The position numbers were made by a program. Shown here piece by piece: positions 1 through 3,000 of a stretch of DNA of 64,000 bases. Each line of letters begins with the position of its first letter. The stretch's first letter is position 1. This DNA comes from Mizuhopecten yessoensis (lineage: Eukaryota). Location: assembly GCF_002113885.1 (NCBI RefSeq), contig NW_018407883.1, positions 125,896 through 189,895 of the forward strand, read 5' to 3'.

Positions 1-3000
1 GGAGTGAAACTGTCCACAGGGTAAGCATACCCAACGTGTGTATGGGAGTGTAACTGTCCACAAGGTAAGCATACCAAACGTGTGTCTGGGACTGTAACTA
101 TCCACAGGGTAAGCATACCAAACGTGTATCTGGGAGTGTAACTGTCAATAGGGTAAGCATACCAAACGTGTGTATGGAAGTGTAACTGTACACAGGGTAA
201 GCATACCAAACGTGTATCTGGGAGTGTAACTGTCCACAGGGTAAGCATACCAAACGTGTGTAGGGGAGTGTAACTGTCCACAAAGTAAGCATACCAAACG
301 TGTGTCTGGGAGTGTAACTGTCCACAGGGTAAGCATGCCACACGTGTGTATGGGAGTGTAACTGTCCACAGGGTAAGCGTACCAAACGTGTGTCTGGGAG
401 TGTAACTGTCCACAGGGTAAGCATGCCACACGTGTGTATGGGAGTGTAACTGTCCACAGGGTAAGCGTACCAAACGTGTGTCTGGGAGTGTAACTGTCCA
501 CAGGGTAAGCATTCCAAACGTGGGTATGGGAGTGTAACTGTCCACAAAGTAAGCTTACCAAACGTGTGTTTGGGAGTGTAACTGTCCACAGGGTAAGCAT
601 TCCAAACGTGGGTATGGGAGTGTAACTGTCCACAAAGTAAGCTTACCAAACGTGTGTTTGGGAGTGTAACTGTCCACAGGGTAAGCGTACCAAACGTGTG
701 TCTGGGAGTGTAACTGTCCACAGGGTAAGCGTACCAAACGTGTGTCTGGGAGTGTAACTGTCCACAGGGTAAGCATACCAAACGTGTGTATGGAAGTGTA
801 ACTGTACACAGGGTAAGCATACCAAACGTGTGTATGGGAGTGTAACTGTCCACAGGGTAAGCATGCCACACGTGTGTCTAGGAGTTCATTAGTATGCCCT
901 GTGGTTTATTGTGGTCATTAGTATGCCCTATGGTTTATTATGTTCATTAGTATGCCCTGTAGTTTATTATGTTCAGAAGTATGCCCTGTGGTTTATTATG
1001 TTCATTAGAGTGTCCTGTGGTTTATTATGTTCATTAGTATGCCCTGTGGTTTTTTTGTGGTCATTAGTATGCCCTCTGTTTTTTTGTGGTCATTAGTATG
1101 TCCTGTGGTTTATGATGTTCATTAGTATGCCCTGTGGTTTATTATGTTCATTAGTATGCCCTGTGGTTTATTATGTTCATTAGTATGCCCTGTGGTTTTT
1201 TTGTGGTCATTAGTATGCCCTCTGTTTTTTTGTGGTCATTAGTATGTCCTGTGGTTTATGATGTTCATTAGTATGCCCTGTGGTTTATTATGTTCATTAG
1301 TATGCCCTGTGGTTTATTATGTTCATTAGTATGCCCTGTGGTTTTTTTGTGGTCATTAGTATGCCCTCTGTTTTTTTGTGGTCATTAGTATGTCCTGTGG
1401 TTTATGATGTTCATTAGTATGCCCTGTGGTTTATTATGTTCATTAGTATGCCCTGTGGTTTATTATGTTCATTAGTATGCCCTGTGGAATATTATGTGCA
1501 TTAGTATGTCCTGTGGTTTATTACATTCATTAGTATGCCCTGTGGTTTATTATGTTCATTAGAATACATGTGGATTATTACATTCATTACTATGCCCTGT
1601 GGTTGTTTATGTTCATAAGTATGCCCTGTGGTTTATTATGTTCATTAGTATGCCCTGTGGTTTATTATGTTCAGAAGTATGCCCTGTGGTATATTATGTT
1701 CATTAGTATGCCCTTTGGTTTATAATGTTCATTAGTATGCCCTGTGGAATATTATGTGCATTAGTATGTCCTGTGGTTTATCATGTTCATTAGTATACCT
1801 GTGGTTTATTACATTCATTAGTATACCCTGTGGTTTATTACGTTCATTAGTATGCCCTGTGGTTTATTACATTCATTAGTATACCCTGTGGTTTATTACA
1901 TTCATTAGTATACCCTGTGGTTTATTACATTCATTAGTATACCCTGTGGTTTATTACGTTCATTAGTATACCCTGTGGTTTATTACATTCATTAGTATAC
2001 CCTGTGGTTTATTACATTCATTAGTATACCCTGTGGTTTATTACGTTCATTAGTATACCCTGTGGTTTATTACATTCATTAGTATACCCTGTGGTTTATT
2101 ACATTCATTAGTATACCCTGTGGTTTATTACGTTCATTAGTATACCCTGTGGTTTATTACATTCATTAGTATACCCTGTGGTTTATTACATTCATTAGTA
2201 TACCCTGTGGTTTATTACGTTCATTAGTATACCCTGTGGTTTATTACATTCATTAGTATACCCTGTGGTTTATTACATTCATTAGTATACCCTGTGGTTT
2301 ATTACGTTCATTAGTATACCCTGTGGTTTATTACATTCATTAGTATACCCTGTGGTTTATTACATTCATTAGTATACCCTGTGGTTTATTACGTTCATTA
2401 GTATACCCTGTGGTTTATTACATTCATTAGTATACCCTGTGGTTTATTACATTCATTAGTATACCCTGTGGTTTATTACGTTCATTAGTATACCCTGTGG
2501 TTTATTACATTCATTAGTATACCCTGTGGTTTATTACATTCATTAGTATACCCTGTGGTTTATTACGTTCATTAGTATACCCTGTGGTTTATTACGTTCA
2601 TTAGTATACCCTGTGGTTTATTACATTCATTAGTATACCCTGTGGTTTATTACATTCATTAGTATACCCTGTGGTTTATTACATTCATTAGTATACCCTG
2701 TGGTTTATTACATTCATTAGTATACCCTGTGGTTTATTACATTCATTAGTATACCCTGTGGTTTATTACATTCATTAGTATACCCTGTGGTTTATTACAT
2801 TCATTAGTATACCCTGTGGTTTATTACATTCATTAGTATACCCTGTGGTTTATTACATTCATTAGTATACCCTGTGGTTTATTACATTCATTAGTATACC
2901 CTGTGGTTTATTACATTCATTAGTATACCCTGTGGTTTATTACATTCATTAGTATACCCTGTGGTTTATTACATTCATTAGTATACCCTGTGGTTTATTA

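What the first reader, a model, noticed from the sequence alone, without database searches (positions are those of the whole stretch)
1..880. 44-bp minisatellite appears to be the amplified 3' end and splice donor of the GH gene's missing upstream exon
Seen: each unit reads GAG TGT AAC TGT CCA CAG G|GTAAGC, i.e. E-C-N-C-P-Q-(G) followed by a near-consensus donor in phase 1. The next exon (5054) needs exactly a phase-1 input, and joining gives ECNCPQG-VRCMGPGICAC..., which completes the otherwise truncated first Cys-rich module. Inference: the real exon ends just upstream of the window, and at least 20 copies of its junction follow it. Because 44 is not a multiple of 3 and one frame contains TAA, only the first donor yields protein. 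The others are decoy U1 sites that could route transcripts to NMD and act as a copy-number-dependent expression dial.
Basis: partly seen in the sequence, partly recalled or inferred. Interest (0 to 1): 0.7.

Follow-up and report, generated by a model that had tools for sequence, protein, structure and literature searches.

The report
Splice-junction minisatellite in a scallop intron
A 44-base stretch covering the end of an exon and the start of its intron has been copied head to tail at least 20 times inside a scallop enzyme gene, a repeat type already known from human and lancelet genes and probably harmless.

Summary
Positions 1-885 are a 44-bp minisatellite with 20.1 copies, cut by the window start. 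All 20 units keep GTAAGC.

The window is Yesso scallop, not human. The public protein of this gene (P0001 = OWF45168.1 = XP_021364289.1) reads ...HKCVWECNCPHG|VRCMGPG.... Read in frame, the repeat unit gives (H/Q)TCVWECNCPQG followed by GTAAGC, a 9 of 10 match ending at the same codon phase.

Each unit is about 31-34 nt of exon end plus 10-13 nt of intron start. Only the first donor keeps the reading frame.

This is a known kind of repeat. Human F7 intron 7, IFI6, CBS, LMNB2 and PDGF have it, and in amphioxus it is called a "mirage". In those cases the extra donors are silent or only the first two are used. The "NMD expression dial" is therefore untested and runs against most precedent.

A second array of this kind is fully visible in the window, in the neighbouring TMCC-like gene.

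Verdict: new member of a known kind, and I found no mollusc report. The exon itself lies outside the window and was not seen.

The parts
1..885 (+). 44-bp minisatellite: 20 full units (1-880) plus 5 nt, cut by the window start. [quoted passage not shown]
   Evidence: TRF result. Unit table. 25-mer search found 20 matches against 0.00 expected. tblastn of P0001 residues 84-93 against the units gave 9 of 10 identity.
21..862 (+). Series of 20 pseudo-donor sites. GT sits at unit positions 21-22, i.e. window 21+44k for k=0..19. The hexamer GTAAGC is intact in all 20 units.
   Evidence: One search gives the 9-mers and their scores of 7-8 of 9. One search gives 0 of 120 cells changed in GTAAGC against 48 of 760 in the other unit positions.
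884..4254 (+). 29-bp minisatellite, 116.3 copies, joined directly to the 44-bp array in the same intron. Its unit shows no similarity to the 44-bp unit beyond shuffles.
   Evidence: TRF result. Boundary read. Unit comparison: score 10 against a shuffle mean of 10.1.
4255..5053 (+). Non-repeated 3' remainder of the intron, with the acceptor AG at 5052-5053.
   Evidence: Sequence read. Splice placement.
5054..5183 (+). Exon encoding P0001 residues 93(part)-136: the end of one Cys-rich module plus a complete tenascin/teneurin-type EGF-like module. It enters in phase 1 and its donor is AAC|GTAAGT.
   Evidence: tblastn at 100% identity. Boundaries. Pfam EGF_2 E=0.0032, 18.2 bits, below the 22.1-bit cut-off.
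5857..15105 (+). Remaining 11 exons of the same gene (LOC110457373): 5857-6059, 6951-7085, 8547-8761, 8982-9185, 9773-9934, 10395-10562, 10978-11082, 11804-12005, 13544-13809, 14499-14644, and 14964-15102 plus the stop codon. They encode a beta-sandwich and a TIM-barrel glycosidase-like domain.
   Evidence: tblastn. Boundary placement. Structure model and fold search.
29109..29334 (-). Exon of the neighbouring TMCC-like gene (P0160 residues 402-476), ending ...TACAGG|GTGAGT.
   Evidence: Sequence. 100% match to P0160. Exon end fixed.
27795..29114 (-). Second boundary-spanning array, 41 bp x 32 units. The first unit starts with the last 6 bases of that exon and holds the authentic donor. GT is kept at the donor position in 12 of 32 full units (18 CT, 2 TT).
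   Evidence: TRF result. Units in register. P0160 reads KVYR|VDTQ across the first donor.

Best explanation
The array is a 'mirage'-type intronic minisatellite. A 44-bp segment that straddled an exon-intron boundary of a scallop gene was duplicated in tandem, probably by replication slippage or unequal exchange, and then grew to at least 20 copies. The segment held the last ~31-34 nt of the exon and the first ~10-13 nt of the intron. The host gene encodes a secreted protein with EGF-like modules and a glycosidase-like domain. The array now forms the 5' part of an intron of more than 5 kb. The authentic, most upstream donor gives the annotated mRNA. The 20 or more downstream copies are pseudo-donors. 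By analogy with the studied cases they are mostly or wholly unused. If one were used it would break the frame: the next donor leads to a stop at the second codon of exon 5054, and later donors lead to a stop inside the array. The array is most likely a neutral or mildly costly by-product of a genome very rich in minisatellites, not a regulatory device. Shown here: the repeat, the intact donors, the frame arithmetic, and the match to the annotated protein. Inferred: contiguity with the exon, the slippage origin, and the silence of the pseudo-donors.
For: The array and its donors are confirmed. The window is Mizuhopecten yessoensis: exon 5864-6061 is 100% identical to P0001, which is both the submitter's model OWF45168.1 and RefSeq XP_021364289.1. 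P0001 reads ...SLHKCVWECNCPHG|VRCMGPG. The units read CVWECNCPQG, 9 of 10 identical, and two units read HTCVWECNCPQG. In frame, 11 of the 19 units tested give TCVWECNCPQ. The motif before the junction is conserved in 7 of 7 full-length molluscan homologues. Reading on from a unit's donor in the protein frame meets a stop 74 nt later in 15 of 20 units. Exon 5054 read with 0 bases carried in gives V then a stop. The unit order ABCDEFGHIHIJKJKIILMN shows duplicated two-unit blocks, which points to ongoing array turnover. Tandem arrays cover about 12.7 kb of the 64 kb, by my addition of the rows. A second array of the same architecture is seen complete in the window, with the annotated protein using its first donor. 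For precedent I read the abstract, introduction and discussion of PMC1557585 and passages of PMC3087553 and PMC3902484.
Against: The exon itself lies outside the window, so contiguity of exon and array was not seen. The annotated residue before the junction is H, not the Q of the units. No transcript data were available, so use of the first donor rests on two annotation pipelines giving one protein. GTAAGC is unchanged in 0 of 120 cells while other unit positions changed in 48 of 760, which could hint at constraint on the donors. Counted by columns (0 of 6 variable against 17 of 38) this gives only about p=0.04 by my hypergeometric arithmetic, and the units share ancestry. Three of three other scallop models of this gene (P0002, P0003, P0004) begin at the Met of MGPG and lack the N-terminal part. 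This is unexplained and could mean that splicing or assembly around this intron is not straightforward.
Confidence: 0.8

Rival explanations
1. The pseudo-donors bind U1 and are used often enough that a share of transcripts is spliced out of frame and destroyed by NMD, so array length sets the output of productive mRNA.
For: All 20 units keep GTAAGC. Their match to the donor consensus (7-8 of 9) equals or exceeds that of the gene's 11 real donors in the window (5-8 of 9). Any pseudo-donor use gives a premature stop. In human IFI6 and CBS the first two pseudo-sites are used. Four folded units show no structure that would hide the sites (z=+0.90).
Against: In human F7, LMNB2 and PDGF and in amphioxus Adh3, globin, TnC and PGBD5 the extra sites are not used. 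In F7 the most upstream site wins even over stronger downstream ones. Where pseudo-sites are used it is only the first two, so 20 or more copies would add nothing. Only one protein is annotated for the gene. In the neighbouring array 20 of 32 units have lost GT, as expected for drifting sequence without function.
Confidence: 0.12
2. Chance resemblance. An unrelated intronic satellite happens to contain a donor-like hexamer and a Cys-rich reading.
For: The genome is full of minisatellites. Donor-like 9-mers at 7 of 9 or better occur at 2.59 per kb per strand in non-array sequence.
Against: The match is 9 of 10 residues, including three Cys and a Trp, to exactly the residues that precede the junction in the annotated protein, and GT follows at the same codon phase.
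Confidence: 0.02
3. Assembly artefact. The array, or its copy number and position, was produced by mis-assembly of a repetitive region.
For: The window contains an assembly gap (N run 32824-33804), and short-read assemblies handle minisatellites poorly.
Against: There are 14 distinct unit variants in an ordered pattern with duplicated two-unit blocks. The array joins the 29-bp array cleanly. An analogous array lies next to a verified exon in the same window.
Confidence: 0.04

Closest known systems
Human F7 intron 7 VNTR (37 bp, 5-9 copies), from PMC1557585 (abstract, introduction and discussion read)
   Same: It is a minisatellite whose first unit spans the exon-intron boundary, so the authentic donor is followed by near-identical pseudo-donors. 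The unit length is not a multiple of 3, and only the first donor gives the normal product.
   Different: The F7 unit holds 4 exon bases and 33 intron bases, whereas this unit holds about 31-34 exon bases and 10-13 intron bases, so each copy also repeats about 10 codons. F7 has 5-9 copies and this array has at least 20. Silence of the pseudo-sites was shown by experiment for F7 and is only inferred here.
Amphioxus 'mirages' in Adh3, globins BflGb6/9, TnC and PGBD5, from PMC3087553 and PMC3902484 (passages read)
   Same: They are minisatellite-like tandem duplications of exon-intron boundaries in an invertebrate. They carry splice signals, are reported not to disturb normal splicing, and are unstable in length.
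   Different: They occur in a different phylum. The reported units are 10-160 bp and mostly few in number (3-6 for BflGb6). Some duplicate the acceptor side. I found no report for molluscs.
Human IFI6 (6-16) intron 2 minisatellite, CBS intron 13, LMNB2 and PDGF arrays, as summarised in PMC1557585 (introduction read)
   Same: The authentic donor is followed by many repeated donors: 25 in IFI6, 15-20 units in CBS, 10-15 units in LMNB2 and 16-18 units in PDGF.
   Different: In IFI6 and CBS the first two pseudo-sites are used constitutively. Whether anything similar happens here is unknown. That the IFI6 unit is 12 nt and in frame is my recollection, not from a call.

Membership tests
Boundary-spanning minisatellite ('mirage' / F7-type VNTR) | Head-to-tail array of many near-identical units | tested here: met
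   20.1 copies, 90% matches, no indels.
Boundary-spanning minisatellite ('mirage' / F7-type VNTR) | Each unit contains the exon's 3' end, the 5' splice site and the start of the intron | tested here: met
   The units read CVWECNCPQG then GTAAGC. The annotated protein reads CVWECNCPHG at the junction, in the same phase. The test is at protein level only, because the exon's DNA is outside the window.
Boundary-spanning minisatellite ('mirage' / F7-type VNTR) | The first unit is the authentic exon-intron junction (array contiguous with the exon) | not testable with these tools
   The window begins inside the array, and no tool here reads the rest of the scallop scaffold. For the 41-bp array of the neighbouring gene this feature was tested and met.
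Boundary-spanning minisatellite ('mirage' / F7-type VNTR) | Mature mRNA uses the most upstream donor | tested here: inconclusive
   Both public gene models give one protein without inserted repeat sequence. No cDNA or RNA-seq was available.
Boundary-spanning minisatellite ('mirage' / F7-type VNTR) | Length polymorphism between alleles | not testable with these tools
   Only one assembly was seen. The duplicated two-unit blocks suggest turnover.
Decoy-donor / NMD-coupled regulation | Measurable use of the extra donors giving transcripts with premature stops | not testable with these tools
   Only the frame consequences could be computed.
   The model of P0001 has pLDDT 89.1 and pTM 0.90. Foldseek against PDB gave 99 matches at E<=0.001. 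The top hits are GH51 arabinofuranosidases (E 2.2e-07, TM by target 0.43), followed by GH10, GH39, GH79 heparanase, GH53 and GH158.
   N395 and E396 are invariant and E543 is at least 90% conserved in the 42-sequence alignment A2. Their placement on barrel strands 4 and 7 was not checked.
   No Pfam, NCBIfam or PDB sequence match was found for the catalytic part, whether searched exon by exon or with P0001 and profiles. The domain nevertheless has 2246 relatives at E<=0.001.
EGF-like (tenascin/teneurin type) module | Pfam EGF model above its curated cut-off | tested here: inconclusive
   For exon 5054-5183, EGF_2 covers the full profile (1-32 of 32) but scores 18.2 bits against a cut-off of 22.1. 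The Haliotis homologue reaches EGF_Teneurin 24.5 bits against 24.3.

The most novel reading that the evidence does not exclude
In scallop genomes the 5' splice site may be a preferred birthplace of minisatellites. In this one 64-kb window, 2 of the 9 large arrays start at a donor, in two unrelated genes on opposite strands. By my arithmetic about 0.7% per array would be expected if placement were random. A third array carries 65 copies of AAG|GTAAGG on the sense strand of its host intron. If this holds genome-wide, it points to a mechanism that couples splicing or transcription to repeat formation. It would also mean a steady supply of duplicated donors and exon ends from which new exons, shifted introns or donor-dependent regulation could evolve. 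The 20 of 20 intact donors in the array studied here could then reflect retained U1 binding, not merely youth.
Probability: 0.3. Interest if true: 0.6.

Novelty: new member of a known kind. Interest (0 to 1): 0.4.

Why it matters
It shows that the "mirage" or F7-type architecture, so far described for a few human genes and for amphioxus, also occurs in a mollusc, and twice within 64 kb. Arrays like this are natural test cases for how the splicing machinery picks one donor among many identical ones. They also matter for annotation, because they can shift or truncate gene models. Three other scallop models of this same gene lack the N-terminal part. For this gene itself, the practical consequence is that the protein depends on the first of more than 20 equivalent donors being chosen.

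Tried and rejected
1. **Named family for the catalytic domain.** Exon-by-exon Pfam and PDB sequence searches found only EGF. NCBIfam and PDB profile searches also found nothing for the catalytic part. Only the fold search gave an answer.
2. **RNA structure hiding the pseudo-donors.** Rejected. Four units fold no better than shuffles (z=+0.90; 166 of 200 shuffles fold at least as well).
3. **Known RNA family in the intron or gene.** None found at Rfam gathering thresholds in 1-16000.
4. **The 29-bp array as a derivative of the 44-bp unit.** Rejected. The alignment score was 10 against a shuffle mean of 10.1, and 306 of 500 shuffles scored at least as high.
5. **Recursive-splice-site reading (AG directly followed by GT).** Rejected. 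In 16 of 20 units one G separates CAG from GT, and only one unit reads AAG|GT.
6. **Selection on the donor hexamer.** Suggestive only. The counts are 0 of 120 cells against 48 of 760, but by columns this is about p=0.04 and the units are not independent.
7. **Acceptor-side array at the last TMCC-like exon.** Rejected. The 65-bp array ends about 75 nt before the acceptor.
8. **The 40-bp array at 61971-62793 as a third boundary array.** No parent exon was found. P0160 residues 1-49 are not in the window.
9. **ORF 4197-4475 (minus strand) in the intron.** No Pfam match.
10. **Other copies of the 44-bp unit in the window.** None outside 1-885.
11. **What stayed unchecked.** Whether the unit is dispersed elsewhere in the scallop genome could not be checked. 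Supplements of the papers were not opened. Additional files 4-6 of PMC3087553 hold the mirage alignments and could refine the comparison.

Full report
**What is in the sequence.** Positions 1-885 are a 44-bp tandem array with 20.1 copies, 90% matches and no indels. The array is cut by the start of the window, so 20 is a lower bound. A 25-nt stretch of the unit is found 20 times with up to 3 mismatches. All matches lie on the + strand within 2-862, 11 of 20 are exact, and 0.00 are expected by chance. Every unit keeps GTAAGC. The 9-mers around it are AGG|GTAAGC (16 units), AAA|GTAAGC (3) and AAG|GTAAGC (1), matching MAG|GTRAGT at 7-8 of 9 positions. The gene's 11 real donors in the window match at 5-8 of 9. 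The array runs without a spacer into a 29-bp array of 116 copies (884-4254), whose unit is unrelated. About 800 bp of unique intron follow, then the acceptor and the exon at 5054.

**Where the window comes from.** It is not human. Exon 5864-6061 is 100% identical to a 784-aa protein of the Yesso scallop Mizuhopecten yessoensis (P0001). P0001 is both the genome submitters' model OWF45168.1 and RefSeq XP_021364289.1. I searched the gene exon by exon. Full-length work used the public protein P0001 instead. The N run at 32824-33804 was left alone.

- P0001 reads ...DDGWTWSTSLHKCVWECNCPHG|VRCMGPGICACAQSC.... tblastn puts residues 93-136 on 5053-5184 at 100% identity.
In two units they give HTCVWECNCPQG against HKCVWECNCPHG.
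- In both cases GT follows after the first base of the Gly codon, which is the phase-1 input that exon 5054 needs.
- In frame, 11 of the 19 units tested give TCVWECNCPQ. The others carry scattered replacements and one carries a stop, as expected for non-coding copies.
- The stretch KC[VAI]W[DE]CxCxxGxxC[MI][GA]PG is present in all 7 full-length molluscan homologues aligned: chiton, abalone, three clams or mussels, one unnamed, and the scallop. The exon end is therefore old and the repeat derives from it.
- Each unit is thus about 31-34 nt of exon end plus 10-13 nt of intron start.
That fits a copy that has drifted by one base from its source, or the reverse.

**Frame consequences.**
- All three + frames of the array hold stops, and the longest open run is 38 aa, less than the 44 codons of three units.
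- Reading on from a unit's donor in the protein frame meets a stop 74 nt later in 15 of 20 units.
- Splicing from the next donor would carry 0 bases into exon 5054, which then reads V followed by a stop.

**What the gene is.**
- The N-terminal 135 residues are a signal peptide and Cys-rich EGF-like modules of the tenascin/teneurin type. Pfam hits are mostly below the curated cut-offs.
- The junction module is not the first such module, because 92 residues precede it.
- The rest has no Pfam, NCBIfam or PDB sequence match, although one 108-aa exon finds 2246 relatives at E<=0.001.
- A model built on 42 sequences (pLDDT 89.1, pTM 0.90) matches TIM-barrel glycosidases. GH51 arabinofuranosidases come first (E 2.2e-07, TM by target 0.43), then GH10, GH39, GH79, GH53 and GH158.
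- N395 and E396 are invariant and E543 is nearly invariant.
- "GH gene" is therefore supported at fold level only, and no GH family can be named.

**How it most likely works.**
- The architecture is already described. PMC1557585 (abstract, introduction and discussion read) reports that the first unit of the human F7 intron 7 VNTR (37 bp) spans the exon-intron boundary.
- In F7 the identical downstream "pseudo-sites" are functional but unused, and the most upstream site is chosen even over stronger downstream ones.
- The same paper lists IFI6 (25 pseudo-sites, the first two used), CBS (two used), LMNB2 and PDGF (none used).
- Passages of PMC3087553 and PMC3902484 describe "mirages" in amphioxus. 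These are minisatellite-like duplications of exon-intron boundaries in the Adh3, globin, TnC and PGBD5 genes. They are length-unstable and are reported not to disturb splicing.
- By analogy, the scallop array is a tandem duplication of a junction that expanded by slippage or unequal exchange. Duplicated two-unit blocks are visible in the unit order ABCDEFGHIHIJKJKIILMN. The first donor does the work and the others are mostly silent.
- The repeat, the donors, the frames and the match to the protein are shown. Contiguity with the exon, the mode of origin and the silence of the extra donors are inferred.

**The dial hypothesis.**
- Nothing here tests it.
- For it: all 20 donors are intact, with 0 of 120 cells changed against 48 of 760 elsewhere in the unit. 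They are as good as the real donors. Four folded units show no masking structure (z=+0.90).
- Against it: most precedents are silent, and at most the first two pseudo-sites are used, so copy number beyond a few should not matter. Only one protein is annotated. The conservation signal is weak when counted by columns (0 of 6 against 17 of 38, about p=0.04 by my arithmetic), and the units share descent.
- That F7 repeat number has been linked to factor VII levels is my recollection and was not seen in any call.

**A second case in the same window.**
- The neighbouring gene on the minus strand is TMCC-like (Pfam Tmemb_cc2, E 8.5e-30 and 8.8e-31). Its protein is P0160, a RefSeq isoform of the same scallop.
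- Its exon 29334-29109 ends ...TACAGG|GTGAGT. The 41-bp array (32 units) begins with those last six exon bases.
- P0160 reads KVYR|VDTQ across the first donor. Here the exon, the first unit and the array are all visible.
- Of the 32 full units, 12 keep GT at the donor position (the authentic one included), 18 have CT and 2 have TT.
- A third array (34 bp x 69; 30062-32407) carries AAG|GTAAGG on the same sense strand. All 65 matches in the window lie inside it, against 0.58 expected. It lies 417 nt from the assembly gap and no parent exon is known.
- Across the 9 large arrays, donor-like 9-mers (at least 7 of 9) number 125 on the host gene's sense strand and 4 on the antisense strand. Non-array sequence has 132 and 132. 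The units are not independent, so this is a lead and not a test.
- By my addition of the rows, tandem arrays cover about 12.7 kb of the 64 kb.

**Novelty and verdict.**
- Full-text searches found no mollusc case: mirages/minisatellite/exon, minisatellite/scallop/intron, and tandem repeat/splice donor/bivalve. The one abalone paper with an intronic minisatellite does not place it at a boundary. The library lacks most subscription journals, so this absence is weak evidence.
- I file the array as a new member of a known kind.
The regulatory reading is unsupported.
- Left open: the sequence upstream of position 1, any transcript evidence, array polymorphism, and why three other scallop models of this gene start at the Met of MGPG.

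Noticed in passing
window 27795-29334, minus strand: A second boundary-spanning minisatellite. The TMCC-like exon 29334-29109 ends TACAGG|GTGAGT, and a 41-bp x 32 array starts with those six exon bases. The annotated protein uses the first donor. 12 of 32 units keep GT at the donor position.
   Followed up: yes
window 30062-32407, minus strand: A 34-bp x 69 array at 98% identity carries the near-consensus donor AAG|GTAAGG 65 times on the sense strand of the TMCC-like intron. 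It lies 417 nt from the N run, and no parent exon was identified.
   Followed up: partly
P0002, P0003 and P0004 (orthologues from other scallops); window 5065 region: All three other pectinid models of this gene (688 aa) begin at the Met of MGPGICAC, inside the exon that corresponds to 5054-5183. They lack the signal peptide and the earlier Cys-rich modules. Possible causes are missing exons, assembly gaps, or out-of-frame splicing upstream.
   Followed up: no
whole window: About 12.7 kb of the 64 kb (my addition of the TRF rows) is tandem arrays, including nine large minisatellites with periods of 20-65 bp. In these arrays donor-like 9-mers lie almost only on the host gene's sense strand (125 against 4), whereas the background is 132 against 132.
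   Followed up: partly
window 1-885, minus strand: The reverse strand of the 44-bp array is open for 165, 184 and 259 aa in its three frames, while the + strand has stops in every frame. There is no sign that it is coding, and it is probably a by-product of unit composition.
   Followed up: no
window 5857-15105, + strand (P0001 residues ~137-784): The glycosidase-like domain belongs to a large family (2246 relatives at E<=0.001 for one exon) that has no Pfam, NCBIfam or PDB sequence match. Some relatives carry a T9SS sorting tail or a dockerin, so they are probably bacterial. The fold resembles GH51, GH10, GH39 and GH79.
   Followed up: partly
window 309-660: Two-unit (88-bp) blocks are duplicated inside the 44-bp array (unit types HI HI and JK JK), a higher-order pattern that points to recent unequal exchange.
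   Followed up: partly
window 4197-4475, minus strand: A 93-aa Lys/Glu-rich open frame lies in the unique part of the intron, directly after the 29-bp array. It has no Pfam match.
   Followed up: partly
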